A stretch of 64,000 nucleotides of DNA from Daphnia carinata (GCF_022539665.2 NC_081331.1:7688001-7752000), one strand, 5' to 3'. Shown: positions 17,202 to 61,937, counted from the first letter of the stretch. The notes: generated by a model not told the origin, from the letters alone. Numbers and translations: made by a program.

Positions 17202-17346
17202 TATAGTAGTTTTAAGTGCGTAGCACCGACTGCCTCTTTATTCTCTAGTTCTGCATGAGGGTTATAGCCATGAATACCATGACATCTAGCGGCCACTGTT
17301 ACACACACACACACACGCAGGGCTCACTAGTTAGGTATTCACAACA
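17202..17346 (-). repeat. 5' LTR, 145 bp
   Basis: Direct repeat of 9969-10111 with one extra CA unit; adjacent to the PBS. Confidence 0.95.
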
Positions 17347-21516: not shown

Positions 21517-21871
21517 CGGATTCTGGTAGTTATTTATGGCTATGGAGATGTCTAGGAGCACTTGCGATACCAACCGAAAAAAGAACTCACTCGATAGTAG
21601 ACTGCTTTGCGGTGGTGCTCTACATGGAATGGCCCAACACTGTAATGAAAATGTTAGTGTTGTGTGAAAATCGTCTGTAATCAGAATGGGTTAATCGGAA
21701 CGTAAGCGTCGTTTATGATACAGACGATCAACGTTAGATTCTCCCCCTTCGGCTTCCTTTGATTTTTTTTTTTGCCGTTATTAAGAAAGCTATTGGAGGT
21801 TCAGGAAAGATTCTTGGAATGGTTGCAAAGGGAATTGATCATGCCGGAATTGACTAAATACTTATTGTTAG

Positions 21872-40760: not shown

Positions 40761-43269
40761 TCAATTACAGAACAAAAAGTGTCGTGCACTAGTGTAGTAT
40801 TTTTAAGTTCATATGTTTTGTGTGGGGCTGCAAAGTGGCGGTTTTCCCTATGCTTTGTTTGCCAAACCTGACACATTTCACTGGAACCTCCTGTACATGT
40901 TGCTTTGAGATGTAGAAAAAAATCTGCCGCGTCTTGATGGAACTGTCGATTTCTTTTTCTAAAACTGAGGTTCTGAAACTTTTTTTCTTTTGATATTTTT
41001 TTAGTTGACCATACTTACAAATAAAATCGACAAGCTAACTAATATAACCTTTAACTTGGTTCAATGTATTCTTGAAGTATACCAGTATATATACAACATT
41101 CTTTAATTAGCGGACTTGCTGTTTGCCTGATTTAAGCCCTGGCATCAAGTTCTTTTTCAAACAATAAATGAATCGTTTCAACATTATTCGATTCAGTGAA
41201 TGACCCTCCCAAGACAGGTTACCTATGAAGTTGATGGCCTATGACCAAGAGCCAGTTGGTAAGCAGCACGCCTTACTGGTAACAAGTAAGGTCTAGCCTA
41301 GTAATAGGCTAGATGCGTTTTTCATATTTATCGTCTGCCACGTCTGACTGGTATCTCTGAGTGTGTCTACGACTCCTTTCTATTCGCTCTTCCATTCCGT
41401 AATAATATTGAAGATTTAAAAGTGTTGATTGAGCGTAAAACCTTTGTTAGCAATAAAACGTGATTCATAAGAAGGCTATAAATAGTCTTACGTTGAGGTA
41501 TAGCGACCAACGCCCACCTCCATTATGTCGGAAACTTGTAATGTGACGTCATACAACCAATCCAGCGGTTCTATGTCAGTTAATGTTTTGTATTAATTAC
41601 CAATGGGGTTTTAATAATTACAGTAGTCAGGGGGACTACCGTAGGGTCTAGGAACAGTGTTTAGAAATTTGAAATAGCAATCCTCATCCTAAAGAACATG
41701 AAAAAATATTACCTGAAATAGTGACTCTATAACAACCGTTGAAAAACTGTTTTTAAAATGCATCAATAGAAGTTCGAATAATGACAAGAATGAATTGACC
41801 TTCCATCTATTTTGAGGGCTGAAAGTAGACGTTTCCCAGATTGCACAGTTCTGCCTTTAAGACGTGATTTGTCCTAGTTTTCGGAAATGTGCCTAATTCA
41901 TTAAACATCCCAGAAGAGGCCGATAGGTAATTAAATCTGGTTTTGATGACCACCAAACTAGGGATAGAAGGGGGATCTCTGTTCGTCTTTTGCGCGGTCT
42001 TCGGGTAGCCTATGAGCCTAATGACGAGTTATTATTGTTCCAACATCCGTCTTTTAGCAGCGCTTATAGTCCCAAACAGGGTTTATGATTACGGGACAAT
42101 AATTGACCTCTTGTCTTATGGATATTTTGTTTCATCACCCTTCGTCAAAATGAAATAAAAATGCAGTCAGAGTAAAAAACGATATTTTTGTTTATTTCCT
42201 CTGGATTATTGTTTTGTGGAACAAATGAACGGAAGGTAGAGGGAACGAAAATGGAGATGGTTTCCTTTGTCGGATGATGCTATATTATGACATACGACTT
42301 GCACTCTTCTTCTTTTTTGCCTAGAGCCGACGACGCTTGCAGTGTCAAAGGCCATTCCAGTTTACTTGCGAGCACTTAGACAAAATGTTTTTCTAACACT
42401 AACATAAATAAACTGCTTTTATGAGGCGAATGCGGTGCAATGACTGACTGAGTATAAGCACCAACGTTTCATTAGCCGGTTTGGACTATAAATATAGTAA
42501 AGCCTATTTTCATAAAAAGCGGAATCGACCTCAAGCTCGCAAAAAACAAGAGAAAGCCATTTAAAGGTGAGTCACAGTCGATGGGTATTTTGATTTAAAA
42601 CTAGAATTTTGGCACAATCAAAGCCGTTTGTTTCACAGCATTTGGAACTGCGCAAGGCCGTGAAGAATGTCTTAGTTTGGCCCAATACAGTTTCTTATAA
42701 AGCTGTCTTTTTCCGGATTTACGTTATGGTTTTTTGCCGGTACGATTTTTTTCGTGTAGTGTTCAATTTTGTTTGACGTTGTCTCGAGGGGTCAAGTGTC
42801 GCAGTACAGGGTTGTGTGGCGTAGCTTCGTGGTACGCCCTAACGACCCGCCGTTGCGCCATTTTCTTTTCATTTCCGCTGTTATGTTTTAAATAATTAGT
42901 AATAGAGAAGTAAAAGAAAGTGAAAGAGGTCAATGAAGGAAGTGTAGTTAATTTCGTGTGTTCAAAGTAACTGTGACATAATTTATAGCAGTGCGCTTCT
43001 TTTTCAGACATTATAGTCAGTAGGGGGAAGTGGGGTGAACCGGGACAGTGAGTGAAGTATGATAGTTGGAGGAAAAATAGTTAATATTGATTTAAAATTT
43101 CAAATAAGTTATATAGTATTTGTATACATGTTTCCATTCGAATCTTCATTTTCAGATTCGGCGGACAGTGGTGTCTGACTGCCCACTTAGACTGTTTCCA
43201 CCTTGGGTTGAATTCAGCAGAGCTCGTGGATGTCGACCATCTGCGTCACAGGTTGCTAAATAAATGCTC

Positions 43270-44580
43270 TAAGTTTCTTCATCAAGCCGAAATCCCTGTT
43301 TTTAGATTGCGTCCCATCCAAATAAACAGTTCTCAGAAACACCATATGCTACAATAATTCTTGTCAAAACTGACTGTCCATATCGTACAGGGATGTAACG
43401 CTTCTGAGCGTATGTAAATTCTCTTCCCCTACATCCCATAAATCAAGTCGTGATTGTAGATCAGGGGCAACCTTTTAAATAATTTCGAGAACAATACTCT
43501 TAGAAGCGCCCATATTAAATAATGCTTGAAACGGGATCCGAAATATCCTTAGTGAAAGTACTGGAACCGATTCATTCATTTTTGCTAATGTTTTTTTTAC
43601 TTGTCGGGATTTAAACTGAGGCTCGTAATCAATTGACCCGAAGTTACAGTTGATACCTTTTGGTTTCCCTGACGCTGAGGGGGACCTTTAATATTAGGGA
43701 TATAACAATTTCTGAACAAAATACAATTAGACTTATGGCCAATTTCACGACGGAAATAAGAGATTGGAGGCTGAAACTGTTCCAAATTACGATGTCGGAA
43801 TTGACGGCAAACAGCCTTAGCGATATCCATAAGAATTAAAAGCTGGGTAGTCCTATATAATTAGAATCATTAACCGGTCTTGAGGAAGAAGGTTGGAGTG
43901 TTATGGGCCTATTCAAAATCTATCTAATTGGTAAGAATTTATGTTACTTTTGAAGCGCGGAGGTGACGTCTCCAATTTTGGTCCCAAATGACGTATTTCA
44001 TTTGAAAGGAAACCTGTTTTCTATACGGGACGCCTGTTGAAAAAGATACATAATCTATTTTATGAAGTTGAAGGTGTTTTACCGCCTGTGGAAGTTCACG
44101 AAGAACATCCATAATGTCATCCTTTTCCGATTTTATATTTACTTCCATAACGAATATTGGCAACGGCATTACTTACCATCTCTTTCTGATCAATTAACAT
44201 TTGTTTATTTTTTTTTTATTCCGTATTTTTGGTATCGTATGACTCGTATATCGTCCTAACGAACTCATGTATTTGACAGTCTGTCTATAAAGTTTCTAGA
44301 CGAACGGCATATACGCTTGTCGATGCAATAATTTGGTTGATATCTTTAAATTCCTTCTATCGGACGGACCCGAATCACCCAATTATTTTTTGCATAAGAA
44401 CAAGGAAAAAGATTTTTTTGTATAGCCTGCAGGATATGCCCTTTTAAAAATGTTCTCTAAATGATGAGCATAATCTATCATTTTTCAAATCTATTTTTTA
44501 AGTCAACATTATCATCTCCGTGGAAGTGATGGAGTAATTTTCTAATGGAGGCATGTTCATATGGATGTTTACCGCGATGG
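43270..44580 (-). pseudogene. Decayed gag/protease of a relative of the 48927-61937 element
   Basis: PYRKQVSFQ, GPPQRQGNQ and the conserved CAGGGAAACC slippery context; FQALFNMGASKSII parallels LQALFDTGAAKSII at ~52780. Confidence 0.8.
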
Positions 44581-45267
44581 TTTGGATAACTCAACAGCTT
44601 TAGCTGTTGTTTTACTCGCACTCTTCTGAGCATCCTGACCCATCTACTATACTGTCGCGTCGTCGAAATTCAACTCGTCATCGCGACCCCCCCCCCCAAC
44701 CAGCAGCGGCAGGATTGGTTGAAGATCCTCACCTCTTTATGGTTATTCTCTTGAGCGTCACTCATTCGCGGGAAGTAAATGGAGCGAACTTGACTTCTCT
44801 AGGGGACAGTTAGTTAGTCAGATGTGTTTTGATCCGCTCTCATCATGTATCGTATAATCTTATCAATTAACTCTTTAACCCGGAACGCCGCTTATCGCTC
44901 TCTCACTGAAGGAGGGTAGCAACACGTTAAAATACTTTAAAAGATTTGACCCAAGAGTCAAAGCGAAATTGGGAATCCAGAAAAAGAAGAAGTTGTAAAC
45001 GAGATAAGATGTGCCGGTTGTTTTGGAAATTATTGAAATCAGTAACAGTGGCTGCTCTGGGGGGGGGGGGGGGGGACGACAGTAAGCCATATTATAGGTC
45101 GGATACGCAAGGAGGCATTTTAGGGCTCCTTTTTGTTGATTCTGAGCGAGTCCTAAAATATGATTCTGAATTGGTCAGAATTCGTCAATGTTTCTATCGT
45201 TTCATTGGTCTGGCGGTTTCCTAACCTCGTTCGTCTTGGGTGTCGCCTGTTTCTCGACAGGGCATGA

Positions 45268-48108
45268 GGATTGGCGGAGAAAAAGGCCCAGACGAAAAAG
45301 GCCCAGACGAAAAAGGCCCGCGAAAAAGGCCCAGACGAAAAAGGCCCATACGAAAAAGGCCCACTTTTTTCCAAATTTAAAAGTAGCCTTTTTCTCCATT
45401 GGACTGGGCCTTTTTCTCCGCTCAATTTCCATGTTCCTACAAACTTTATGTTTGTTTCCAAAATTGTATTTCCCGCCTCCTATTCCGTGGAATTTGGAAT
45501 GTACAAAGGTTGCTGAAACCGTGATATTCTATAAGGTTTGCAGAGATCAACAATGTTAGCGTTTGTACGCTAGTTAATCTTTGATTATTTATTCGGTTGT
45601 AATCTAATTTCGGATTATATTAGTATTTATCTATTGCTTATATCCCGTTTCATAAGGTTCATTTTTCACAATTTTTGTTTTTTGAACAACTATCGCTTCT
45701 TGAAATGTAATAGAAGAAATACATGTTTTCCGCACATAGCCTTGTTCTGTCCACCCTCTTTGATCATTCCTCCCAACCCCCAGTCCATATCCCTTATCAC
45801 TTCCCTTTGTCGATGCTTATGCCATAGGTAAAGACCACTGATTCATTGTGAATACGGTAACTGAATGAGTTCCGCGGGGCTTTTGTGGTTGCTGGGAACA
45901 ATGATATGTTACCACGAAGACTAGTTTATTATTATTACCATTTGATAAATAATGTTTATAGGAATAATATTACAAACTTAAACTATTGTCTGAGGCAAGG
46001 ACCAAAACAAAGACTATTGTAATTCAATATTGATTCTAATACCATATATTCCTTATACATTTTCAATTCTTTTAACAATTACAAAGAGCCCAATAAATAT
46101 ATTAAAATCATAACCTACTGCTATAAATGATTTTATTCGTTCTTCGTGTCCTGTTTTCACCTTTTGCACATTTTCAAGCAGCTATTGATTACCTAATTAC
46201 ACATCACATACTACATTGAGATATAAGGAAGCTTTACACTTTACGTTAACAAAGCTACTAATAATGACAAATCAATTTTCTACCACGACGGACTTTTTTT
46301 AAAATGAGTCTTTTATCTTTAGTTTATTCTTTTATGTTCTTTCTTTTCAGTTTTCTTTTCTTAATGCTGGCTTTTCTCTTTTTCTGTTGTTATTCCTTTC
46401 TCTTTTCCTTTTCTTCGATTCGTTCAGCCCAATTTATGTTACTTTATAATTTGATCTCGTTCATTAATTGATTTGGCAAGCAATTCCACAGTCTTTTTCC
46501 TATTGCAATACAGAAAGGTTAAAAGTTTTGAAGATCTTACAAATATTTTTGTCAAATTGAAGGTTTACCTGAAAACCTTCAGCTATTTGCAGAGCACCAT
46601 TTCATTCCTGTTTCTCTTCAATGCTTCTTGCATTCTCAACTTCAGCTTGGCCTATCAAGATTTTCACTTTTGGTGTAAGCTTTATTTTCTTCATTTGAAT
46701 CGTTGCCACTTCTGGATCTAAAGTGGTCTTTTTCAGAATGGGTGAAGAATTAGATAGTTATCCAAAATCAAATTTGCTGAATACTAGGCATTCTTCACTG
46801 TTGAAAATTGGTGTTAGCGGTGTACTTGTTGGTCTTGGTTCAGGAATACCTGTTTTGACAAACTCTGTGGGATCAGAGGTTGATGACACTGATGCTGCCT
46901 CGGTGGCTTGTGCAAGTTTGGCAATTCAGGACCACTTCTTGTTATTTTTCTTTTTTAATTTCTTCTTCTTCAATTTTTCTAACTCCTTTTAAGTTTGATT
47001 TTCATTGTCCTATCAGACAAATCCAGCCTTTTCCCTGAAAATAGATGGAATAAGCTGGCCCGTCTTCCTTAAACCTAAATGTTAGCACATACCTGTTAAG
47101 TGTGAGGTGTTAGCTGCTAGACATTCTTCCAGTTCAACACCAACCTAATTGCTATTGAGATCGCCAACTGTAGATACATTTTCAGTTGGAATGTTGGTCA
47201 ATAAGCTAGAAATGAAAAAGTCTTGTTGCTGCTTTTTTTAGTTGCTTTTTAAGAGCGACGATGTCAATGGACCCTCGCGTTTAATAAGGCTCTTGATTTT
47301 TTGGGTCCTCATTTCCTAAAAATTTTTTTAGACGTCACTTTCAAGTTCTTGTTTTCTCTTTTTCCATTTACAAAAACTGCCTCTCTTATTATAACCTTTA
47401 AACTTTATTATTATTTACCTTGATCTCTCAACACTATCACTGATCACTCCATAGATCAAACTATACGAAACAAGTCTATTGTTATTTTCTTTAGGGAACG
47501 GCATTTTCGAGCCAAATCTAGCGTCAAGACGCCACAAACAATGGCGGACAGTGGAAAGCTGTTAGTAAAGCCCAAGTAGTGACCAAAACTTCCACTTGAG
47601 GGCAGTATCAGCAGAGTAAGTATCCCAAAAATCGTATGAATAGTAGTACAAAAAACAAACGTAGTAAAATAAACTGTTAAGATTTTCTATTGAAATTTTT
47701 AAAAAATTTTAATTCTTAAATAACAAATTCAACAAAATTTAGTTCCTTTGTTATTGTTTATGGTTTCCATCTATCGGTGTAGTATGCGAATTCCATTGAT
47801 AGCTATCTGTTATTGTCTGCTAGCATCGTCATCATGGCTTTCCATAATTGCATCAATAAATGGGGAAATTATTGAAGTCTTACAATTTATTTTGCTTTCA
47901 ATATGATTGAGAAGAAGATTTTTTCATGGGAATTCCCTAGGAAGCGTTAATCATAAGGTATGTGTCTCCTCACATCTATTCATATCAATACTGAAAAGAA
48001 TTTATTTTGTTGAGTATCCTTTTTCGTATGGGCCTTTTTCGTCTGGGCCTTTTTCGCGGGCCTTTTTCGTCTGGGCCTTTTTCGTCTGGGCCTTTTTCTC
48101 CGACCTCC
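45268..48108. mobile_element. Non-autonomous foldback/Mutator-like TIR element
   Basis: TIRs made of ~15-bp tandem units GAAAAAGGCCCAGAC (45274-45364 and 48018-48102, inverted). Flanking direct repeat GGCATGAGGA at 45261-45270 and 48109-48118; exact TSD length is ambiguous. Confidence 0.85.
46280..47400 (-). pseudogene. SURF6: Decayed surfeit locus protein 6 copy with introns inside the TIR element
   Basis: My minus-strand translation gives LVFSKFDF (~46790), E*NGALQIAEGFQ followed by a GT..AG intron, VELLAKSI and WAERIEEKEKRKE*QQKKRKASIKKRK, in the order of SURF6 motifs as I recall them. Confidence 0.7.
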
Positions 48109-48958
48109 GGCATGAGGACAGTGCTACTCTCCGTCACAAGTACCTAGAGGTTTCGACAGACGTGCCTCAAAAAACGTTAAACCTACCCTAACATACGTAA
48201 CCCTGCAGAAAATGGAAAAACATCTCCCGTCAAAGCTAGCACGGCATATGTACCCAATAAAAAATTAACCCCCCCCCCGTCACATCTACCCTATTAAAAA
48301 TATACTACAATTACAACCGCCGTATGAACCCTTTTGTTTTGTTAAGAACAGACATACCTACCCGTTGGTTTAAAACTGATCGACACACCTACCTCTTCGA
48401 TTAACACAGTGTAACATACCTACCTCTCCGGTGGAAATTGAACAACACACCAATCCCTTCAATTAATACAGACCGACATACCTACCGATCAGCTTGCAAC
48501 CGAACACTTTGTTGCAAGCTGATCGACACACCTACCCCTTCGTTTAGTTGAGCCCGACAAACCTACCCCTTCGTTTTAAAAAATCTTACTTACCTACGTT
48601 GATGTCCAGGTTACCGTCTCCATACTATTATTCGTTACCTTGAAATTACGAACGAAACTACTGATGCCTTTTGGTTCTTTTGGGAATTGTGGGCAGGAGA
48701 AATGATAGCCGACTTATGGGAGAAATCCTGGATATGTTTTTCTGTCGCAGAACGATAATAATTGTGTTGCCGCGGCTACCCTACAAGGGAAACTACAAAT
48801 AATAACTCAATTCTAACTTGTATAACCCTAAAAAAAACGAGTCGAAAGACCAGCCCTTTTTCTACAACTATAACTTTCTACCAACAATTCCGCTGTATTG
48901 TCTTTTGTTGTTTACTAGTTTGCATTTGTAACGAAGCCGGACATATTACTTTTACATA

Positions 48959-49467
48959 TTAATTTTAACGACAAACCTTATGCCTACCGTAACGAAACCT
49001 GGTTACCAATTGAAGCAAACATTGTGTTACCGGAACAGACGCTTGTGCATTCTTTTCGGTATGAAAATGTCGAATTCTTCGACTACGAACATCGAAGCAA
49101 CCCGGCATATACCGACAATATGCTAAATCATATGAACATTATGGCCGATGTAGCCGCCGCGATTAATGAACATCCTCCACCTGAATTTGCCTTACGCCAC
49201 AAATACAGTGCATCGAATGTCTTACTGACATCGGCTAGTGTCGGAACTTATACATCTTGGTGGGACACCATCACAAATTACTTCTTCATCGGCATATTAT
49301 GTCTCTTAGTGCTTCTCTTCTTACGCATATGTTACGCCTGCGGTCTTTTTACACTCATCTGGGCTGTATGCTGTCGCCCTTCCGATCATCCAAGACCTGT
49401 GGCTCCCGAATCGATTCCGATGCATCAACTCTGATTACGGGACGTAATCTCACGCCGCCGGGAGTGA
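48959..49467 (+). repeat. Duplicate of the env 3' end (60699-61207)
   Basis: Constant offset of 11740 bp; about five substitutions. Confidence 0.95.
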
Positions 49468-49819
49468 TGTAACGAAGCCGAACATATTACTTTAACTTTT
49501 TCTCGCTTTTGCTTCAGTAGTAAACGTAAGTCTGGACATGGCAATTGCAACACTATATACGCAGTGCAGCTGACCCAAATAAACACCTGCAGCTGACTCA
49601 CGCAGACGATACGCCCTCAACATCACGCCACATCAAACGGCATCGTTTAATTGGCTGCCGCGTGAATGCACTCCGCACAATCACGCCACTTTTGCAGTAT
49701 GCAAAGTTTCGTGATAAACCCAATCACAGCCGCCACTTCGTTTAAGCAATCTTCCCCGCCTTATTGAGTACTATTGTGCCTTGCTTAATGTTTCGTGATA
49801 ATCGATTCGAATCTGAACA
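49468..49819 (+). repeat. 5' LTR, shortened relative to the 3' LTR
   Basis: Near-identical to 61208 onward for ~250 bp, then deleted or rearranged; ends ACA before the PBS. Confidence 0.85.
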
Positions 49820-49822
49820 TTA

Positions 49823-49835
49823 TGGTGGCAGCGGT
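49823..49835 (+). promoter_or_regulatory. Primer-binding site, tRNA-Leu-like
   Basis: TGGTGGCAGCGGT. Confidence 0.8.
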
Positions 49836-49853
49836 TTCTCGAACTCTACCACA

Positions 49854-52649
49854 ATGACGGATGATGTTATTTATGGCGGACCTAAGATACCTCGCACGCC
49901 TGTAAGCACCCCCCTTGTTCCCCTAACGCCAGTGGTACAAATCTCCGACGAAACGGTTGCTAAGTTAATTGATTTTGAGAAACTATCCGATCGCCCTTCG
50001 TCCACGTTAGACAAAGTTCAGGGCTGTAAAGCGTCAGAAACAGAAACTGAAGCCGGTAAGAAGTCTGCTTCTCCCGTTTCGAAACCTAAATTGCAGATAG
50101 ATAATACTCAGTTAAGTAAACTACGGTCGAATCCTGCTTATGAGGAAGTGGCTCCGTTCGTTAAACCCACCACTAAAACAACTGGTGCACGTGCTAAATC
50201 TACTGCTGCAGCCACTCAACGTCCACGATCGGTTGATGCTAAGTTCTTTTCTCGTCTTTCTCCTCCAAAATCACCTACGAAAAGCGAATCAAAGGCTAGT
50301 CTCCTCTCGAGTACTCTTTGAAGCTTCTTCCAAAAGAAAAGCCCAGTGAATGGACGATTACCTCAACTTGAGCCTCCATCACCTATACCACGAGATCCAG
50401 AGCAATCCATCCAAAGTATTTCCGACGCCGTCGAGTCCGATTCCGTCCCTGATATTAGCACTCAAGTGCCTGAAGGAGAGGGTGTTGGACTTCCAGTCAC
50501 ACGACCCGAAAATTTGGGACCAGCTGAACCGGCTACTGAACGATTTCGGGCTGAGAGACCGCCCCCTGGGCAAACCGCAGTTGCTGACGAACGTGGAGAC
50601 GCCAACAATATTCCTGAAATACTTAGCTGCGATTCAAGAAGTGGGGGCCAGCGGGCAGATAAAGCGGACGACGTGGAAGGCGGATCAACAGGCGTCCGAG
50701 TTGACGACGTCCTTTACGACGTATGCGAGGCAGTTTACGACGTTCCTGTTAGGACAAACGTACAGCATAGAGGAATTGCAGACGCTCGTACCAGCGAAGG
50801 ACACGACCCTCTTCGGCTTTGTGCCGAGAGCGACGACGCAAATCAGCGAGGAGGAGAGGCAATACGAGTTTCTGATCCTGGAAACGTTCGAATTCTCGAT
50901 CCACCTGGAGAAAACCTTGTTGGAATTCCAGCTGACTCTTCTCACGGCCATACTAAACCTACTCTCGTTCATAAGAAAACTACAATCAATCACCAGCTTG
51001 GAATCACTGTTACTCGAACTGATACTCCTCGGGAACAGATTGTCCCACTTCCGGAGAGGGACAAGACCGTGCCACAAGCAGCTATCGGCCATCGTCAAAG
51101 ACGTCCTCGCCCAGACTGCCAAACAATTGAAACAGTTGCTATCGTCCATTCGGGAAACCCAGGAAGAGCTGGAGATCACCCCAACTTGTCCGACATCATC
51201 ACAGCAGATAGACAAACGCAAGACAGAACGACTACGATTCCGAAACCGTCGATACCACTGACCGACAACAATATTGGCGAATCCCGGCCAGTTTCGAACC
51301 GCATTCCAGGCGCCGCGCAATCTCACCATCACAGGGCTCCAAACTCTCCTATAACTTTTTTTACCAACAATATGGTTTACTCTTATTCCCCTACCAGGGC
51401 AGCTACAGTAAACGATTTAAATGATTTACAAAACAACCAGCATACCTTTCCACGATTACAATTACTTCCTCCCTTTTCCGGTAGTCCAATTACTCGCTTT
51501 GACTCTTGGCTAGAATCTTTTGAGAGTATAGTTGATGGGGCAGGATGGTCTGAAGGGAAAATTATTCAGATGATGCGAGCAAAATTAACAGATAAAGCTT
51601 TTTCACTCATACAAACCTTAATTAAAAAACATCCATACGACTATGGTTCCATTAAAACGGCTTTGCTCGATCACTTTCACGGGGATGAAAATGTTGATGT
51701 ATACATTACGAAATTCAATAAAGCTAAACGTAAACCTGGGGAAAAAATTGTAGATTATGCTCATCGTCTACAAGAAATTTTTAAAAAGGCATATCCTGAT
51801 GGTTATATGGAAAAATCTTTCGCAGTTATTCTCATGCAGAAATTTATCGAAGGATGGGATTCAAAATTGCAAGCTAAGGTCAGATATAAGGAATTCAAAG
51901 ATTTCCACGAGCTCGTAGCAGCAACTCGCGTTTACGCCGTTCGGCTGGAAGCCTTGGAAACAGACAATGAGAAGCATGAATTTGTTAGGGCAATTGACGA
52001 GTCATTTAGCACAAAAAATTCGGAATTAAAAGAACTTAAGCAAATGTTAAGTGACCAGAAAGAAATTGTAAGCAGTGCCGTTGCCAATATTCGCCATAGC
52101 CATAAGCAAGGGGATAATCCAAAGTCGGATAAAGATGAGATTAAGGATGTTCTTCACGAACTCATACAGGCTGTTAAACGACTCCAGCATGATACGAAAG
52201 ATTATTCTCCGGCTACACCAGGCCCTTCTTATAGGAAACAAGTTTCATTCCAATCGAATAACGCTAATCAAGACGGAAACTGGAGGCCTCCCCAGCATCG
52301 TCTCAGTAATAATTATAATAATAATTATTATAATCCCAGCCCTTACCAACACCAACCTTCTCGATTTCCAAACAGACCGACGCCAGTTGCGTCCTCTTTC
52401 TCGAGGCCACCTAGCAATAATAATAATAACAGGTCAGATCAGCAGATCATAACTTGTAATTTTTGTGGTTACTGCGGTCACACTCAGTCCAATTGTCGTC
52501 AATTTCAGCGTCACACTCTGGAACAAGCCCAGCCTCCAATCTGCTATTCCTGTCGAGAAATTGGGCATACGTCTAATAATTGTCCAAAATATAGGAATTC
52601 GCAAAGACCTAAAATTCCAGGGCCCCCTCGACACCAGGGAAACCAGTAG
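49854..52649 (+). CDS. Gag with a long disordered N-terminal leader and one in-frame TGA at 50319-50321
   Basis: ORFs 49764-50321 and 50346-52649 share a frame. Capsid-like LPPFSG...FDSWLESFE...RKPGEKIVDYAHRL; two knuckles CNFCGYCGHTQSNC and CYSCREIGHTSNNC. Confidence 0.88.
50350..51261 (+). CDS. Putative overprinted ORF, 303 aa, +1 frame relative to gag, unknown function
   Basis: ATG start, stop-free for 303 codons, Leu-rich and helical-looking, entirely inside the gag leader. Confidence 0.55.
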   Translation: MDDYLNLSLHHLYHEIQSNPSKVFPTPSSPIPSLILALKCLKERVLDFQSHDPKIWDQLNRLLNDFGLRDRPLGKPQLLTNVETPTIFLKYLAAIQEVGASGQIKRTTWKADQQASELTTSFTTYARQFTTFLLGQTYSIEELQTLVPAKDTTLFGFVPRATTQISEEERQYEFLILETFEFSIHLEKTLLEFQLTLLTAILNLLSFIRKLQSITSLESLLLELILLGNRLSHFRRGTRPCHKQLSAIVKDVLAQTAKQLKQLLSSIRETQEELEITPTCPTSSQQIDKRKTERLRFRNRRYH

Positions 52650-52679
52650 CTATCAACTGTAGCTTCAGGTTAGTTGATA
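52637..52679 (+). promoter_or_regulatory. -1 ribosomal frameshift signal between gag and pol
   Basis: G GGA AAC in the gag frame two codons before the stop. The -1 frame is open into pol. Downstream stem TATCAACT...AGTTGATA. Confidence 0.82.
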
Positions 52680-55600
52680 ACGAGCCTCATATTAAACCCC
52701 GACAAGTCGCAAAATTAACCACTATTACGAATGAATCGACCCCTAGAATTCCATTGAAAATTTTTCAGATCCCGTTACAAGCATTATTTGATACAGGCGC
52801 GGCTAAAAGTATTATCCATGAGAGATTACTTAATAAGTTACCCCCTAGAGTTCAGGTGATCTGCAGTCAGCTTGACTTCGATTTATGTGATGTAGGGGAG
52901 AAGAAATTACATACGCTGGGAAGAGTTATTTTACCCGTACGATACGGAGAAACAGTTTTTGAGCAAGAATTTATTGTTACTAATGGTGTTTCTGAGGACT
53001 GTATCCTTGGATGGGATGCAATCCAGAAGCACGGATTTCGGCTTGACGGAGAAGCCAGGAGCATTTACCTAGCGAGGGATGAGCAGGGATCAGCCATCTC
53101 TAAGGTACCCGACATGGCAGTTGCTACGGTCAAAAAGACGACGCTATTTCGTCAGACGTCGATAGTAGTTGCAGCGCAAATGAAAGATTCATTTCCGTAT
53201 ATCCCACAAAATACAGCGTTTATATTTACCCCAGCAAAAGATCTGCCAGCAGGCATTTATATCGAAGAATTTATCGGCAATGTATCGGGAGATGGAACTT
53301 ATAAAGTTTTGGTCGAGAATCATTCACTACATCAAATCAAAATTCCTAGAAACACTAAATTAGGCGTAATTGAAATAGTTGGGAATATTATCGGAAAAAT
53401 TTCTTTAGCGAAATTAGAAGATAATCCTAAACCAGTAACTGAGCCAGTTTTAATCACAGAAGTAGATTCCGAATTTCAAGAGCCGCTTTCAAAATTATTA
53501 CATGACTTTCACGAATTGTTCGCGTCCAAAGATTCAGAATTAGGAAACACCAGCCTTATAAAACATACGATTGATACACAAGGACGAGGCCCCATTCGAC
53601 AACGCCCATACAGAGTAACAAATAACCAAAGGAAATTATTAGATGATAAAATTCAAGAAATGCTTGATGCAGATGTAATCCAATATTCGCATTCTCCATG
53701 GGCTCCACCCGTGGTTTTAGTAGAAAAGAAGTGTGGAGAAGTAAGATTTTGTGTAGATTATAGAAAATTAAATAGTATTACGAAAAAAGATTTATTCCCT
53801 ATGCCTAGAATAGACGAAACATTAGACAAATTATATGGGAAGAAATTTTTCACAACTCTTGATTTAGCTTCAGGCTTTTGGCAAATTCAGATTGATGATC
53901 CAGCTATTGAGTAAACAGCGTTTGTGGTAGAAAACAACCTCTACGAATTTAAACGTATGGCATTTGGATTGTGCAATGCACCTGCCACATTCCAACGGCT
54001 AATGAATTACGTACTGAAAGACGTTTTGGGAAGTAAAGCATTAGTTTATTTGGATGATGTTATAATCTTTTCCGACACTTTCGAAGATCATTTACGTGAT
54101 ATTCGAGAAATTTTTGAATTATTACGGGATGCCAATCTGAAATTGAAACTCAAGAAATGCCAGTTTATTAAACTCTCAGTAAATTATCTAGGTCACGTAA
54201 TATCGACCGATGTTATTAAGCCTGATCCGAGCAAAATTGATAAAATAGTCAATTATAAAACACCGACTTCAGTCCTGAAGTCAGATCATTTCTCGGATTA
54301 GCTGGATACTACAGAAGATTTATTAAGGATTTTGGATCGATTGCCAAACCGTTAACTCGTTTGACTCATAAAGATCTTAGCAGGAAGCCTTTTAGTTGGG
54401 GACCCGAGGAACAAGTTGTTTTCGAGAAATTGCGCAATTCTTTAGTAACGCCACCAGTTCTTGCTTACCCCAATTTCAATGAAAAATTTATCCTTTTCAC
54501 CGATGCCTGCGATTACGGCATTGGAGCAGTGCTATCCCAAATTCAAAATGGCCAGGAACACCCCATAGCCTACTCCAGTAGACAGTTAACAAAAGCAGAA
54601 TCGAATTATAGTACGATAGAGAAGGAAGCCTTAGCAGTCGTAAATGCCATCAAGCATTTTAGGCATTATCTATTGGATAAACCTTTTGAAATTATCAGTG
54701 ACCACCGTCCTTTGCAATGGCTTAAAGAACAAAAAGATAATAATGGTAGATTAGGAAGATGGGCTATACTATTGGCCGCAACGAATTATGAATTAAAATA
54801 TAGGCCGGGACGTGTTCATCAAAACGCAGATTGCCTGTCACGCTTAAAAGTAGCTAGTATACAAGCAAGTAGGAATATTACCTTAATTTGTGAGAAACAA
54901 TTGGAAGACAACCTTTGCATAGCCATTCGTAATTATTTGGATAACGGAGAACTTGAGGAATCTATTCTTCAATCTAAACCAGATTGGGTTAAAGAAATTG
55001 ATTATTTTGAAGTTATTGATGGTACACTTTACTGGCATGTGCTGCCATCTGCCGGTAGCAAAAGAAACGAAACCAACCATCAGTTAGTCTTGCCTGCATC
55101 GTTACGCCATCTAGTGCTCAAAGAAATACATGACGCACCGATGGGCGGACATTTAGCTTTTTATAAAACCTATTTGAAAATAAAGAATCATTATTGGCCA
55201 AATATGAGAAAGGAAATTAAAGAATACTGCCAGGCTTGTGAGGTGTGCACCGCCAACACTTCTTCAACATATAGGGCGTTGTTGCATCCTCATGAAATAG
55301 CAAAAGCTCCTTTCCAAGTCATTGGGATGGACTTTTTGGGCCCAATTACGCCAATTTCACCTAATGGAAATAGTTATATTTTAGTCATTACCGATTATTT
55401 TAGCCGGTGGGTAGAAGCTGTTGCGTTAAGGGATCAAACAGAACAGACGACAGCAAAATGTGTATATAAGACAATTATAGTTAGACGTGGTATGCCTAAA
55501 GCTATTCCTTCTGATCGTGGAACCAATTTCACGTCGAAGCTATTCCGTTATTTCTGTAAAAAATTACAAATTGATCAAAAATTAACAACTGCTTACAATC

Positions 55601-56652
55601 CAGCTAGCAACGGAGAGACTGAAAGATTTAATCGAACATTAACAACAATGTTGAGAAAGGAATTAAAAGATGGTGAACATGAGAACTGGGAAGATATGCT
55701 GGATGATGTTTTATTTGCTTACCGTAGTTCTGTCCATTCTTCGACATGTGAAACCCCGTATTATTTACTGCACGGTAGAACTCCCAATATACCTATTAAT
55801 GAATTCCTTAACGCTTCCCCAAAAACATTTACCTCCGCATCGGATTACGTAGGTAATTTGACTGAAGGCTTGCGTTACAGTTTCCAGCGCGTCCGTGAGG
55901 AGAGCAAAAAAGCAAGGAAACGTCAGAGGGAACAATATAATAAAAGAGCAAATGTAAAACAGTATATGGTAGGTGATAGAGTATTATTAGATATTAGGGT
56001 AGTTAAAGAGGGCGATAGTAGGAAATTTACCTCTAAATATAAAGGTCCTTATAGAGTTGTAAAAGTTTATTCCAATAATACAGTTGATATTGCTGATAAT
56101 TCATACATCTGTCAACGAACTCACGTTAACCGTCTAGAACCCCTGTACGAAACAATGTTATGGAAAGACGAACATTGTCCCCCTATCGAGACGCCTCCGA
56201 AGTTCGAGAATCGATTTCGTAAGTCGATTTCCACCCAAACAATGGAAACTGTGGAAAATATGGAGCTAACAACAAGCGAATCGGAAAACGTGGATGTGGA
56301 AGTAAGTCCACTAGAAATTGTGGATGCGGAAAATGCGGAATTGGAATCCGCAGAATTGGAAATGGCAGAAGAGAAAATGGACGCCAACGCTAACAGTAAA
56401 CAACCATTATGCCTCAACGACAAAATTCAAGATATACATGATTCGGTTGACGATAACTCAATCGAAGCTGACATATTGTTGAACCGTCATAATCCAACAC
56501 CGATTCCCGAAAACAATGTAGTTACCATCAATTTGGAATCTGAGGGCCGACAGGTGGCGCCAGCCATCGATCAGCCGGAAGAATTGCCACCCCAAAATGC
56601 TACCGGACGCCCGCAAAGAAATCGAAGACTACCAATGCGTTATAGAAATTAG
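52637..56652 (+). pseudogene. Pol (protease, RT, RNase H, integrase); stop at 53912-53914 and frameshift near 54280
   Basis: LFDTGA, FCVDYRKLN, MAFGLCNAPATFQ, VYLDDV, FTDACDYGIGAVL, SDHRPL, HDAPMGGHL...CQACEVC, SDRGTNF, NGETERFN, GPY. Confidence 0.95.
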
Positions 56653-56747
56653 AAGCGTTTTTCCGAAACAAAGTCAACGATCACATAACGAACGACGTGT
56701 ATTTAACAGCAAGAAATTTCAAAGGGACTTCACAACGTTTTTGACAC

Positions 56748-57224
56748 TTGTTGAGTCGAGTTCACCAAAATCGCGCTCCAAATTTAAACTTCCGTGAAGA
56801 TGGACCCGTGCGCCAACTCAACCAATCAGCAAACCCAGGCAGCTTCCGAGTGGCTAAGTGCCGAAGAGCAAGCCGGAAAAGCGATGGCACCATCCCAATC
56901 TACGACGATTGGACTCCCGTTCCGGAAAAACCTACCAACATCGTTAGCCAGACGCCTCAGTCCCCGGAGCTCGACGACATGGAGTCATGGGACATGGAAC
57001 GTCAACGCTACGAGCGCCGCATCGAGGAACGTACGGCCGCGCTCACCCGTCAATTAAATGCCGATCTTTACGCCGAAGATTGGGGAGGAGCAGTCACCAC
57101 CCTCAAGCAAATTCTGGACTTGGATCCAGGAAAGCGCCACCCCCCTCTTTTCAACTGGTCGCCGGACCAGTGGGGCACTGGTCGTAAAAGGCAGAGGTGC
57201 GACCCTATCACCATCCAAAACTAA
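56748..57224 (+). CDS. Accessory ORF A, unknown function; true start uncertain
   Basis: C-terminal half is similar to ORF B (ILDLDP motif); AATAAA at 57391. Confidence 0.55.
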   Translation: MLSRVHQNRAPNLNFREDGPVRQLNQSANPGSFRVAKCRRASRKSDGTIPIYDDWTPVPEKPTNIVSQTPQSPELDDMESWDMERQRYERRIEERTAALTRQLNADLYAEDWGGAVTTLKQILDLDPGKRHPPLFNWSPDQWGTGRKRQRCDPITIQN

Positions 57225-57723
57225 GACAACGGAAAACGAAAAGATCAGGACCACCAACAAGACATTTTTTTTCTCTTTCCCCTTATTTACTCTCACCCCA
57301 GTAGAAACATGTGTTTATTCCCCATAGAATAGGACTCTCACAAATTTTGTTTCCCTCTTCTCATTATATTCTCTACTCAAACATAAATAGAATAAACACA
57401 ATAGGATGCATAGAAACTCCGCCGACCTTTCATTATATTACTATTTAAGACGAAATTTGAGATATAGGGACGCTATGAAACAGGCGAATGAAAAAAAGGG
57501 GAAATATAAGATAGACACCTGCTGAACAATCAAGTGGCACCTCGAGGGACTTAGTGTTGAACTCGAATTTTTAACAAAAAACAAAAGAAAGGAAGCTGGA
57601 AACTACAAGTGGAAGGCTTGATTATATAAGTCAATACGTCTCGAACGTCGGGACCACACTCGCAACTCGTCAACGCTACAGACCAGGAGCTAAAGAGTGA
57701 AGCCGACCCACAATCGATCTAAA

Positions 57724-58098
57724 ATGGCTGCGAACAACTTCCGTCGGCCACAGATACCCCAGATCGAACGCGTTCGCCGCAATCCTAAAACCGGGGACAA
57801 CATAGTAGTACAAGAAGCTAACAGCACCACTTCGACAAAAGAAGACGTCGACCGGGCCGTAAGCGCAGCCTGCGGAAGAAACTCCATCGACAATCAACGA
57901 CCGTTCCGAAGGCGGCTGATGGATATGGAACACCATCTCCAGAACCGCTGGAGAGTAGCCCGGCTCACAAAATCTCGGACGGAGAAACTCGTCCAGCTAA
58001 TCGAACAACAGGTCTGGCAGAGGGCCACAGAAGTCTTCGAAGCAATTCTCGATTTGGACCCTGCAAATCGCCGCCCATCATCGCAAGAAGAAAATTGA
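57724..58098 (+). CDS. Accessory ORF B, unknown function
   Basis: TATATAAG at 57623-57630, AAAATGG start context, AATAAA at 58172; similar to ORF A. Confidence 0.62.
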   Translation: MAANNFRRPQIPQIERVRRNPKTGDNIVVQEANSTTSTKEDVDRAVSAACGRNSIDNQRPFRRRLMDMEHHLQNRWRVARLTKSRTEKLVQLIEQQVWQRATEVFEAILDLDPANRRPSSQEEN

Positions 58099-58845
58099 GA
58101 AAAAAAAAGGAAACCTTTGCATTTATACTCGATTCATTCTCTCATGCCTGTTTGTATCCGTTCTTGCCCTCAATAAATAAATCAGACAAAAAAACTAGTT
58201 ACTTGCCCATGTTCATATATATCTCTATATATGAACTAACCCACTAGCTAGAGTCAGGCAAAAGAAAGAGAAGGGATAAGAGTAACAGAAAGAGAGAAAA
58301 CTCTTATAAGCCGATACAAAAAAAACAAACATATACTTAAACTTAGAATAGAAAAATAACAAAGTAACTTCCCGCGTTAGCGCTATGCCCTACTTTTCAG
58401 TAAATTGTCTAAGTCCAAGTTGTTTGTCCTTTCCCTTTTTGCCGCAATATTCCCTTCCTGACGTAGGTTTTCTTGAAATTCTTTAACACAGTCTTTTCCC
58501 TATTTTCCTTCTCTCTTGGGTCCCTCTAATATATATATACAAGAAAAACATTAGTCCATATACCCCATAAGCCTACGAATATTTCACTAAGAAATTTACG
58601 CCTATTTTACCCCAACCTCTTGTGTCTGCGACAAATGTCCCTTGTCTCGCACAAGCCGCTTTTTCTTTCTTCCCCAGATGTTCGTTCCCCTTTTTAGCGT
58701 TATTTTGTTTCTTTCCCCATACCATTTCTCATGTGTTGGACTTAGAAGATAAAAACCTAAATTTCACGTCGTTTATTTTTGATAATAGATAACGAATGTA
58801 ACATTTTGCGTAATTTAGCACCCTTCTTGATGGGTGAGTTATCTA

Positions 58846-58916
58846 GTTCTACTGAGAATTCGAACCTCAGACCCCAAGCATCACAGATGAGCACTCTGTC
58901 ATTGAGCTATTAGCAC
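58846..58916 (-). ncRNA. tRNA-like / pseudo-tRNA unit (GTG at the anticodon position)
   Basis: GTGCTAA TA GCTC AATGACA GAGT G CTCAT CTGTGAT GCTTG GGGTC TGAGG TTCGAAT TCTCA GTAGAAC. A and B boxes are present, D and T stems pair, acceptor stem pairs 5/7, anticodon stem is broken. Confidence 0.65.
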
Positions 58917-59481
58917 CTGTGTTACGCCTTGCGTTGAGCTTAGGAAAAATGCACCCTTCAAGCCCACCAAGCGCGCCCTTTCCCTTCACCTTGCTCGTGT
59001 TTCACTAGCCTTTTACCCTATCTGTATACGTCCTTTGTTTAACTAATTGAACGTGGTCCCTATGTGCCTTTCCGTCTTTAAATTGTAAACTGCATCTTTT
59101 ATCCTCCTGTTTAAACGATTCATTATTTTCGAGAATTTTCTTCGGCATCATTGAGATTGTCTTTTCCTCTTCCTAATGACACCAGTTATGACATAAACAT
59201 ATTCCCCTGTATACCCGATAAAACGCGTTTTTCTATGCCTTATATGCGCATTTTTACTCGCTCGCGACCATCGGCAACTGTTTAAAGGCCGACGGGAGAG
59301 CGTTGACCTTTTTCGATTGCCGTCATATATACTTTCCGCTTTTGCTTTTTATTTTACCTTCTCTTTTATATTACTCCCCTAGTTTTAAGAAACCCACGTG
59401 ATGATGTGTGATGCTTTTATCTATACCTTCCTCTGTTTGATATTGACTGTAATGTTTACTATATGTTGCCCTCTATAGAAA

Positions 59482-61174
59482 ATGTCGCTGATTCCATTCA
59501 TACTGTTGCTATGCCTTTACGGGTTACACCCACAGGCATTTCAAACAACCGTATACGACTGTTCCGAACCATTAAAGACGGGAATACTCCAATTCTCCGA
59601 TGATAATTGTCAAGCAATTGCGCCCGATAATAAGGCCGTGAAGGTGAAATATGCGATTTATAGCGAAGAACGTGCCGCGGCTAAATTTCCCGGATATATT
59701 TGCGCAAGATGGAAGAATATACGGCGCATCACCATGAACTTTTTCGGTCAACTAGTGGTAGTGCCGGATAAAATTTCGATTGACACCCGCCGAGTGTAAC
59801 GAAATGATTAACCATAAACGTTGTGACGAAAATCGGATGACTTTTTCTTACGATAAATTTGTATTTGATCGCGAACCTGACATTTTCGGATATTGGTTAC
59901 AAACAATTGATTCTGAAATTATAAACTGCGTTCTGGAGAAAGTGCTACTTTTTCAGCAACACGAAGACGCCGATTTTACAACTCCGATCGGAACAGCTTC
60001 CGCCACGACTGGAAATTTATCACACAATCACTTAACACCGATTTGGGATAAAACCTATACACAGAAGACTAAACCGAAAACCCGACTAGTGGAAGATGGA
60101 ATGGGTACACTGGTCCGTCTACCGGGTGACGAAATAATTTTCAGGCTCCAAGATGACGCCCAACAACTTGATTTTCATTTGACGCCTATACAACGCTGTG
60201 CCTCCCTAGAAAACGAATGCACCAATAAAACTTCGTCGTTTGAGATCATCGGCCAATCAAAACTCACCGTTTCGACGGCGGCCATCATGGAAAATTTAAC
60301 AGCCACTTTGGAGACCCCAGCGCCATCTACCGACGAAAATCTAAACGTACCCGCGAATATACAATATATTCGAGACCAACTTACCGATCATTAAAATGAA
60401 TTGGCAAGACAAATTCGACTAATGCAATGTGAGGCTCACCACGCTAAACACGAAAGGGCTGTTACAACTGCTCAATATAACGGATGGTTAGCAGCTTCGC
60501 AGTTAAATTTACCACAGTGCACAAAATTACAAGCCTTTGGAAAAACGGTTGTGCTGATTCAATGTAAGGCTTTAAATGTTACATTTGAGACTATACTGAC
60601 ATCTTGCGGACCGCAACCGAAATTTCAAAATTACACTATTAATCTTGACGGATGGGAACTTGTGAAATATTCCCCTTGTTACTGGACTAATGGTTTTGTT
60701 AATTTTAACGACAAACCTTATGCCTACCGTAACGAAACCTGGTTACCAATTGAAGCAAACATTGTGTTACCGAAACAGACGCTTGCGCATTCTTTTCGGT
60801 ATGAAAATGTCGAATTCTTCGACTACGAACATCGAAGCAACCCGGCATATACCGACAATATGCTAAATCATATGAACATTATGGCCGATATAGCCGCCGC
60901 GATTAATGAACATCCTCCACCTGAATTTGCCTTACGCCACAAATACAGTGCATCGAATGTCTTACTGACATCGGCTAGTGTCGGAACTTATACATCTTGG
61001 TGGGACACCATCACAAATTACTTCTTCATCGGCATATTATGTCTCTTAGTGCTTCTCTTCTTACGCATATGTTACGCCTGCGGTCTTTTTACACTCATCT
61101 GGGCTGTATGCTGTCGCCCTTCCGATCATCCAAGACCTGTGGCTCGCGAATCGATTCCGATTCATCAACTCTGA
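59482..61174 (+). pseudogene. Env glycoprotein, class III fusogen-like; frameshift near 59785 and stop at 60392-60394
   Basis: Signal peptide MSLIPFILLLCLYGL, Cys-rich ectodomain with N-glycosylation sequons, C-terminal TM FFIGILCLLVLLFL. Splice acceptor CTCTATAG ends at 59478, just before the ATG. Confidence 0.85.
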
Positions 61175-61207
61175 TTACGGGACGTAATCTCACGCCGCCG
61201 GGAGTGA

Positions 61208-61937
61208 TGTAACGAAGCCGAACATATTACTTTAACTTTTTCTCGCTTTTGCTTCAGTAATAAACGCAAGTCTGGACATAGCAATTGCAACACTATATAC
61301 GCAGTGCAGCTGACCCAAATGAACACCTGCAGCTGACTCACGCAGACGATACGCCCTCAACATCACGCCACATCAAACGGCATCGTTTAATTGGCTGCCG
61401 CGTGAATGCACAAGCTCCGCCCAATCACGCCACTTTTGCAGTATGCAAAGTTTCGTGATAAACCTAGCAGTTGACGGAAATCAGACAAGTAGTTGCAGCC
61501 GTGCCAAATAGTCGTCTTAAGTCAATCTTCCCCGCCTTATTGAGTAGTATTGTGCCTTGCTTAATGTTTCCTTGCCTAAACTTTGAGTTAGAATTCGTTC
61601 TTGTCCCGAGCTATCCCGGACATTGATTGTCAGATTCTTACGAATCTGAACTCTTGTTGTGTATCGCTCGTGTGGAAGCTGAAATCCAAGTCCGCCTTGT
61701 GTCGTTTTCTTACATTCTTTCACTCGTGAGTTCACGGTAAGACCCCCTGTCTATTTGTTCTTTCTTTTAACTGTTTTCCCGAATGTTTCTTATCTTTTGT
61801 TCTCTTACCTTTTTAATTCTTATGTCTTAGCTTACAATAAACACATACGTCATTGTGGGTAAAACGCCTCGAGTTCAATTTACATTTATTGTCTTAATCC
61901 GTAAAGTCCATCTTCCCATATGGGAAGATGCTATACA
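61208..61937 (+). repeat. 3' LTR, 730 bp
   Basis: TG...CA ends, AATAAA near 61836, followed by the TSD CATT. Confidence 0.9.

What the first reader, a model, noticed from the sequence alone, without database searches (positions are those of the whole stretch)
50350..51261. 303-codon ORF overprinted on the gag leader
Both frames stay open for over 900 bp. The gag frame is Pro/Asp/Arg-rich and looks disordered. The +1 frame starts with ATG and is Leu-rich and amphipathic (LEFQLTLLTAILNLLSFIRKLQSITSLESLLLELILLG). It ends just before the capsid domain. This pattern is typical of viral overprinting.
Basis: partly seen in the sequence, partly recalled or inferred. Interest (0 to 1): 0.78.

Follow-up and report, generated by a model that had tools for sequence, protein, structure and literature searches.

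The report
Hidden second gene inside retrotransposon gag
An envelope-carrying, retrovirus-like jumping gene of water fleas has a second reading frame of 300-420 codons inside the front half of its capsid gene, kept open and conserved across related elements, which likely encodes a previously undescribed protein predicted to fold into a helical bundle and is likely read from the same RNA as a shorter capsid protein.

Summary
Confirmed and extended. The +1 ORF at 50350-51261 (303 codons) lies inside the gag frame of a decayed env-bearing Ty3/gypsy element whose named relatives are all from Daphnia. It has no stops where 4-10 are expected. It belongs to a protein family: 25 of 28 search hits, with ATG-started full-length members of 290-424 aa. 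15 of 17 homologues fit the +1 frame of a homologous Gag leader. The +1 protein is better conserved than the Gag frame over the same codons in 15 of 15 lineage pairs, and its tree mirrors the capsid tree. AlphaFold gives a confident all-helical domain (pLDDT 82.6) with no specific structural match. New here: AUGs are purged between this weak-context start and a conserved strong-context in-frame Gag Met at 51372 (1 in 1018 nt). That points to leaky scanning that yields the +1 protein plus a short Gag, beside a long Gag. Codon usage favours gag as the older frame, but no outgroup tested it. Translation and function are unshown; an RNA-handling accessory role is my best guess. Not found in ten literature searches.

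The parts
50350..51261 (+). +1 overlapping ORF, 303 aa: predicted helical domain about 1-277 plus a disordered Arg-rich tail. AUG context has a pyrimidine at -3 and G at +4
49854..52649 (+). Long gag frame: N-terminal motifs, disordered-looking leader that carries the overlap, PNMA/Retrotrans_gag-like capsid, CCHC knuckles. Broken in this copy by a stop at 50319-50321
51372..52649 (+). Predicted short Gag from the conserved in-frame Met (A at -3, G at +4)
50353..51370 (+). AUG-depleted stretch: 1 ATG in 1018 nt in any frame (50723, opening a 9-codon ORF)
49468..49819 (+). 5' LTR (shorter than, and partly different from, the 3' copy)
49823..49834 (+). Primer-binding site, identical to the 12-nt PBS listed for Dpul_errantivirus_3 (assigned there to tRNA-Leu with 1 mismatch)
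52613..56652 (+). pol (PR-RT-RNase H-IN) in the -1 frame relative to gag; broken by a stop at 53912-14 and a frameshift near 54260-54300
56745..58098 (+). Two small ORFs (56745-57224, 57694-58098) that resemble each other (33% over about 69 aa); no Pfam match
59482..61174 (+). env-like gene in three pieces (frameshift near 59790, stop at 60392-94) with hydrophobic N- and C-terminal stretches; resembles the Branchiopoda HSV/gB-type (C2) env rows of PMC13524379 by eye only
61208..61651 (+). 3' LTR

Best explanation
The ORF is a conserved second reading frame nested in +1 inside the leader of gag in a lineage of env-bearing Ty3/gypsy elements of Daphnia; it likely encodes a real accessory protein, predicted to be a helical bundle with a basic tail, and is likely read by leaky scanning from an RNA that also yields a short Gag. 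Shown: the frame is open, conserved, inherited with the capsid and more constrained than the gag frame it overlaps. Shown: AUGs are avoided between its start and a conserved in-frame Gag Met. Inferred: there are three start sites. AUG1 gives long Gag. AUG2 (weak context) gives the +1 protein. Ribosomes that pass AUG2 scan about 1 kb without AUGs to AUG3 (strong context) and make capsid-nucleocapsid Gag. AUG2 is probably reached on a subgenomic or internally started RNA, or by reinitiation after short upstream ORFs; this step is unresolved. Inferred origin: overprinting on a low-constraint Gag linker (about 65%). Inferred function, weakly supported: an accessory factor made together with capsid that handles the element's RNA (nuclear import or export, or packaging) through its Arg-rich tail (about 40%). 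My odds: real protein-coding gene about 95%; leaky-scanning pairing with short Gag about 65%.
For: Family: 28 hits at E<=0.001, of which 25 look like members; P0059 and P0061 are unrelated repeat proteins and P0047 (4728 aa) was not fetched. Full-length members start with Met at or within 12 residues of the same column; 4 more came from the profile search. Frame test: 15 of 17 homologues reach 30-40 compatible positions of 40 against a Gag leader in +1; the +2 frame reaches at most 25 and shuffles at most 26 (extended). Gag keeps Asn/Asp-Gly, the only residue pair class that can hold ATG-G in +1, at the start position in 14 of 14 Gags parsed (one more failed parsing). Conservation over the first 165 codons: +1 protein z 18-63 against gag frame z -0.4 to 33, higher in 15 of 15 pairs, with capsids 52-86% identical. 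The trees of the +1 protein and the capsid show the same groups. Structure: pLDDT 82.6, pTM 0.80 with a 15-sequence alignment. AUG avoidance: 1 observed against 10.9 expected in the window and 1 against 10.3 in L001. Where Gag has Asp/Asn/His/Tyr before a G-starting codon, the codon ends in C 25 times and in T 0 times (pooled P=1.6e-9), with no such bias outside the overlap. Internal Met is 6 of 3210 residues in +1 proteins against 30 of 1710 in capsids. An in-frame Met lies 24-28 residues before the capsid motif in 27 of 27 long Gag records (many near-identical). The residue before it forces A at -3 in 12 of 13 (background 133 of 531). The residue before Asn/Asp-Gly forces a pyrimidine at -3 of AUG2 in 8 of 9 (background 249 of 540). 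Codon usage: gag frame r=0.25 against -0.50 for the +1 frame (P=1e-4) in the window, and 0.73 against 0.33 (P=0.001) in L001. Basic tails: 7-9 Arg/Lys in 12 residues in 4 of 7 proteins scanned.
Against: No expression data. Only one homologous DNA locus covers the overlap, and it carries a frameshift; the other lineages rest on protein records. For two lineages the +1 and Gag proteins come from related but not identical copies (37 of 40 compatible). The window has 5 +1-frame AUGs between AUG1 and AUG2, so plain scanning from the 5' end is not enough in this copy. A crude scan found no strong splice acceptor near AUG2 in either locus. A test for first-position bias of Gag substitutions was null (P=0.35 and 0.27). 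The L001 codon-usage contrast falls to P=0.08 with the window's background, and base composition of a disordered frame can bias that test. One multi-record lineage (P0022/P0026/P0029) lacks the overlap in frame, so the gene is not universal. Single-sequence AlphaFold is poor (pLDDT 42). Lineages are related, so the context counts are not independent. Function has no direct evidence.
Confidence: 0.62

Rival explanations
1. The +1 gene is the older one: a stand-alone gene upstream of a short gag, later overlaid by an N-terminal extension of Gag that reads through it as a linker (as proposed for the hepatitis B polymerase spacer inside gene S).
For: The +1 protein is folded (predicted) and conserved while the gag frame has diverged beyond recognition in distant pairs. 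Gag has its own conserved strong start just downstream of the +1 stop. Gag tolerates in-frame loss of the whole overlap. PMC8227390 (passage) describes this route for the HBV spacer.
Against: Codon usage follows the gag frame in both loci. Leu enrichment is what T-rich third positions of the older frame give a +1 frame (PMC8227390 passage). No homologue or fold match outside this element lineage was found.
Confidence: 0.3
2. Same gene, but a structural role: a matrix- or tegument-like virion protein made in step with short Gag that links the capsid to the gB-type envelope.
For: Paired expression with capsid is implied by the AUG pattern. The element carries an env-like gene. The predicted bundle has long amphipathic helices.
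Against: No clear transmembrane segment (maximum 19-residue hydropathy 1.0-1.8). No resemblance to a matrix protein among the fold hits. Whether loss of the overlap goes with loss of env could not be checked.
Confidence: 0.25
3. Same gene, acting as an antagonist of host silencing or innate immunity, like many overprinted viral accessory proteins.
For: General precedent for overprinted genes (PMC8227390 passages). It diverges faster than capsid: end branches median 0.44 against 0.065 (different taxon sets).
Against: No direct evidence. Tight coupling to capsid translation is not needed for this role.
Confidence: 0.2
4. The helical domain is an alternative N-terminus of Gag, joined to the capsid by programmed frameshifting or splicing.
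For: Two records have the +1 protein fused in frame to capsid (P0030/L001, P0075).
Against: The two junctions are at different places, in single records. Sister records end at a normal stop: four 424-aa copies in one cluster, and P0080 and P0082 read straight through the L001 junction. No slippery heptamer in the window's +1 frame.
Confidence: 0.07
5. The open frame is a by-product of composition or of RNA-level constraint and makes no functional protein.
For: The overlap is GC-richer than the rest (52% against 39-46%). No expression evidence.
Against: Stop-free beyond three null models. Amino-acid conservation exceeds that of the host frame. The start is conserved and the predicted fold is confident.
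Confidence: 0.03

Closest known systems
Branchiopoda HSV/gB-type errantiviruses (Chary and Hayashi, PMC13524379; e.g. Dpul_errantivirus_3)
   Same: Ty3/gypsy gag-pol-env between LTRs, about 12 kb, Daphnia host, identical 12-nt PBS; env resembles their C2 rows by eye.
   Different: The paper annotates three ORFs. Its main text has 0 occurrences of 'overlap' or 'alternative reading frame'. A nested +1 gene, an internal Gag start and the two small post-pol ORFs are not in the parts I read (abstract, section 5 part 1, section 14, passages, supplement rows).
Respirovirus P/C overlap (Sendai virus)
   Same: An overlapping protein within the 5' part of another gene, expressed by leaky scanning from a weak-context AUG (PMC3542737 passage), with asymmetric selection (PMC8227390 passage). 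That C is helical, is in +1 and overlies a disordered P region is recalled.
   Different: RNA virus, no sequence or fold relation found. Here the overlap is 300-420 codons, lies internally in gag and is followed by a second Gag start.
Rice tungro bacilliform virus ORFs I-III
   Same: A reverse-transcribing element with about 895 nt free of other AUGs, a weak-context AUG, then leaky scanning to a strong AUG (PMC3542737 passage).
   Different: There the ORFs are consecutive; here the scanned stretch is dual-coding and also part of a long Gag.
Cer1 CERV (C. elegans; PMC10309623)
   Same: An accessory protein of a gypsy element, needed for export of genomic RNA (passages): the model for the proposed function.
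   Different: CERV comes from a spliced five-exon mRNA that shares the gag frame in exons 1-3. No similarity to the +1 protein was tested or seen.
Gammaretrovirus glyco-Gag and Ty1 p22
   Same: Long and short Gag forms from alternative starts (PMC3542737); an internally started RNA that encodes a truncated Gag (PMC4551931).
   Different: The passages read describe no long out-of-frame gene between the starts. p22 is a C-terminal Gag fragment; the short form here would hold the whole capsid.

Membership tests
Ty3/gypsy LTR retrotransposon | Direct LTRs, PBS, gag then pol in the order PR-RT-RNase H-IN | tested here: met
Errantivirus sensu PMC13524379 | env-like ORF downstream of pol | tested here: met
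   Three-piece ORF at 59482-61174 with hydrophobic ends
Errantivirus sensu PMC13524379 | Env of HSV/gB type by profile or structure | tested here: inconclusive
   No Pfam or PDB sequence hit; resemblance to C2 rows by eye only
Errantivirus sensu PMC13524379 | Intact ORFs, several near-identical copies | tested here: not met
   This copy has breaks in gag, pol and env; no genome was held to count copies
Same-strand +1 overlapping gene | Both frames open across homologues | tested here: met
Same-strand +1 overlapping gene | Protein-level constraint on the second frame | tested here: met
Same-strand +1 overlapping gene | Both products shown to be translated | not testable with these tools
   No expression data available
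De novo (overprinted) gene | Codon usage further from the genome than the partner frame | tested here: met
   (two loci; one contrast weakens to P=0.08 with another background)
De novo (overprinted) gene | Narrower phylogenetic range than the homologous partner-frame region | tested here: inconclusive
   All long-leader Gags found also fit a +1 homologue or lack the region; no outgroup
Leaky-scanning polycistronic RNA (RTBV-like) | Weak first AUG, no intervening AUGs, strong downstream AUG | tested here: met
   (one short-ORF AUG intervenes in each of two loci)
Leaky-scanning polycistronic RNA (RTBV-like) | Both products shown to come from one RNA | not testable with these tools
   needs transcript mapping and initiation profiling
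Rev/CERV-like RNA export factor | Nuclear location and requirement for export of unspliced RNA | not testable with these tools
   only an Arg-rich tail is seen
Any known protein family or fold | Significant profile or structural match | tested here: inconclusive
   Best Z 11.4 (rmsd 6.4, 203 aligned) to a designed helical protein, inside the range generic helical bundles give

The most novel reading that the evidence does not exclude
A clade of crustacean endogenous retrovirus-like elements has created, by overprinting on a Gag linker, a 275-residue protein with its own helical fold. It expresses that protein from a three-start, AUG-purged gag region that makes long Gag, the new protein and short Gag in set proportions. 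This would be a complex-retrovirus-style accessory gene, born de novo in a Ty3/gypsy lineage and kept since the elements of D. magna, D. pulex and D. galeata diverged.
Probability: 0.45. Interest if true: 0.85.

Novelty: new variant of a known kind. Interest (0 to 1): 0.72.

Why it matters
Long, fully nested overlapping genes are well known in exogenous viruses, but I found none described for gag of Ty3/gypsy elements in ten searches (open-licence library only, and Repbase-type annotations and preprint supplements were not visible). If it holds, standard three-ORF annotation of invertebrate endogenous retroviruses misses a whole gene. Because many genomic copies of different ages exist, the system also allows a direct test of how a large folded protein can arise in, or be overlaid by, a second reading frame. 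It adds a predicted leaky-scanning control of Gag isoforms in an animal retroelement that can be checked by ribosome profiling in Daphnia.

Tried and rejected
No genome was held for the window, so copies could not be counted or aligned. No sequencing run was listed for the region: no RNA holder listed, no evidence either way. The word-based protein search with the single +1 protein found nothing; the exhaustive HMMER search did. Viral contig scans found no locus. Pfam: no family for the +1 protein, and only single weak hits in 15 members. PDB sequences: best E 0.087. Foldseek on PDB and BFVD: 0 matches at E<=0.001. VIA-align: only generic helical bundles. These absences do not show a new fold. 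ESM Atlas: unnamed clusters at 0.90-0.94 for the window protein with a low recognition value, and no usable hit for P0079. Complex prediction of the +1 protein with Gag residues covering capsid and the following helices: no answer (score 0.00, alignments not used, partner fold uncertain). First-codon-position bias of Gag substitutions in the overlap: not significant. Programmed frameshift out of the +1 frame: no slippery site in the window, one in L001 at a non-matching place. Splice-site scan: nothing convincing near AUG2. Membrane protein reading: rejected as unlikely, since hydropathy is borderline and the Leu-rich stretch is a long helix of the predicted bundle. The antisense 243-codon ORF (50685-51416) had no Pfam hit and no match among the 36 proteins then held. 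The second, decayed relative in the window has no remnant of the +1 gene. Earlier findings of this scan: none by sequence or place.

Full report
Observation. The window holds, at 49468-61651, a Ty3/gypsy element with LTRs, a primer-binding site at 49823-49834, gag, pol (PR-RT-RNase H-IN) and an env-like gene. The copy is decayed: a stop in gag at 50319-21, a stop and a frameshift in pol, and two breaks in env. All named Gag homologues are from Daphnia (magna, sinensis, pulex, galeata). The flagged ORF is real: 50350-51261, 303 codons, ATG-started, +1 to gag, 17% Leu, over a Pro/Asp/Arg-rich gag segment. It has no stop where 3.9-9.9 are expected under three null models (stop-free in 89, 5 and 0 of 20000 runs). 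Gag starts at 49854, and homologous Gags run without a break from there into the capsid, so the stop at 50319 looks specific to this copy.

Is it a gene? A word-based search found nothing, but an exhaustive search returned 28 proteins. Of these, 25 look like family members; two are unrelated repeat proteins and one was not fetched. Several of the 25 are chimeric gene models that switch between the two frames. Full-length members start with Met at or near the same position and are 290 aa (D. magna, 46% identical), 340, 356 and 424 aa; a 306-aa partial comes from D. pulex. DNA was available for one relative. In L001 the gag leader frame is open, the +1 ATG sits in the same Asn-Gly codon pair, and a single frameshift near 940-961 moves both frames together. 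The +1 frame has no stop in 201 codons before and 207 after it, and the family profile matches both parts. For the other lineages I asked whether each +1 protein could be encoded in the +1 frame of a homologous Gag protein. 15 of 17 reach 30-40 compatible positions in a 40-residue window; the +2 frame gives at most 25 and shuffles at most 26. The two misses (28 and 29) had no close Gag in the set. The pairings define about seven lineages. Asn/Asp-Gly marks the start in 14 of 14 Gags parsed.

Which frame is constrained? Over the first 165 overlapping codons in six lineages, the +1 protein scores higher than the gag frame in 15 of 15 pairs. Between the window and the four distant lineages the +1 protein keeps z 20-36 while the gag frame falls to -0.4 to 2.6. 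The tree of the +1 protein has the same groups as the capsid tree, which points to vertical inheritance with the element. AlphaFold with the 15-sequence alignment gives pLDDT 82.6 and pTM 0.80, ten helices over residues 2-275 and a disordered tail; without an alignment it fails (pLDDT 42). No Pfam, PDB-sequence or fold match is specific. A test for first-position bias in Gag substitutions was null.

How is it likely read? Between the +1 AUG and the next in-frame Gag Met (51372) there is one ATG in 1018 nt against 10.9 expected; L001 has one in 1290 against 10.3; capsid and pol are normal. The avoidance is specific. Where Gag has Asp/Asn/His/Tyr before a G-starting codon, so that a T would create a +1 AUG, the codon ends in C in 25 of 25 cases (P=1.6e-9 pooled), with no such bias outside the overlap. 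Met is ten times rarer inside the +1 proteins than in capsids although Leu and Ile are abundant. The downstream Met lies 24-28 residues before the capsid motif in 27 of 27 long Gag records (many are near-identical). Its -3 base must be A in 12 of 13 representative sequences, whereas the -3 base of the +1 AUG must be a pyrimidine in 8 of 9; the two DNA loci agree. Weak first AUG, AUG-free kilobase, strong next AUG is the layout described for rice tungro bacilliform virus (PMC3542737 passage). I therefore infer leaky scanning that yields the +1 protein and a short Gag. Long Gag is likely also made: its frame stays open, its N-terminal motifs are conserved, and a derived lineage that lost the overlap kept it in frame. 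How ribosomes reach AUG2 is open. The window has five upstream +1 AUGs (three short ORFs ending at 49905, two ending directly before AUG2), L001 has none in the 335 nt available, and no strong splice acceptor was found. A subgenomic or internally started RNA, as for Ty1 p22 (PMC4551931 passages), or reinitiation would both fit.

Origin and function. Codon usage follows the gag frame (r 0.25 against -0.50, P=1e-4; L001 0.73 against 0.33, P=0.001, or P=0.08 with the window's background). By the criterion reviewed in PMC8227390 (passages) this makes the +1 frame the newer one. The reverse order remains possible, because the +1 protein is the conserved one and Gag has its own start behind it; no outgroup decided it. 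Function is inferred only. Four of seven proteins scanned have 7-9 Arg/Lys in 12 residues in the tail and none has a clear membrane span. I favour an RNA-handling accessory role like that of Cer1 CERV (PMC10309623 passages) at about 40%, over a matrix-like role (25%) or an anti-silencing role (20%).

Relation to what is known. The element fits the Branchiopoda HSV/gB-type errantiviruses of PMC13524379: same host genus and size, identical PBS to Dpul_errantivirus_3, and env similar by eye. Of that paper I saw the abstract, section 5 part 1, section 14, passages and supplement rows; it annotates gag, pol and env only, and 'overlap' does not occur in its main text. Passages of the D. pulex LTR survey (PMC2996953) and of a Drosophila ERV study (PMC12992720) mention no such gene. 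Ten searches listed no report of it (listings and abstract starts only, unless named above). Subscription journals, repeat databases and preprint supplements were not visible and may bear on novelty.

Verdict. A real, conserved dual-coding region with an undescribed protein family (about 95% a functional gene). Leaky-scanning pairing with short Gag is likely (about 65%), de novo origin on gag is favoured (about 65%), and function is unshown. New variant of a known kind; interest 0.72.

Noticed in passing
window 56745-57224 and 57694-58098 (+): Two small ORFs between pol and env that resemble each other (33% over about 69 aa) and have no Pfam match: possible further accessory genes from a duplication.
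   Followed up: partly
proteins P0022, P0026, P0029: A multi-record lineage nested among overlap-bearing elements has Gag with the whole overlap missing in frame, on contigs too short to hold it. Either a genomic deletion derivative or a spliced form.
   Followed up: partly
window 48927-49467 (+): An LTR-start fragment followed by a near-identical copy of the env 3' end sits directly before the 5' LTR: a partial tandem or rearranged copy.
   Followed up: partly
window 43255-45066 (-) and 45264-48106: A second, decayed relative (gag-protease part, 66-80% DNA identity) is cut off by an element with inverted ends made of 15-bp tandem repeats; no remnant of the +1 gene.
   Followed up: partly
window 52637-52643 (+): G GGA AAC heptamer just before the gag stop, with pol in the -1 frame: likely the gag-pol frameshift site.
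   Followed up: no
window 50685-51416 (-): A 243-codon antisense open frame over the same overlap; no Pfam hit and no match among proteins then held. Not tested for chance.
   Followed up: partly
L001 940-961; protein P0075: Two records in which a frameshift puts the +1 protein in frame with the capsid, at different places; read as copy- or assembly-specific.
   Followed up: partly
window about 19800-30100 (-), 9973-17361, 1923-4088 (-): By eye from the ORF list: a Helitron-like Rep/helicase region, another gypsy element with terminal repeats interrupted by a hAT-like transposase, and a BEL/Pao-like fragment. Labels are recalled, not tested.
   Followed up: no
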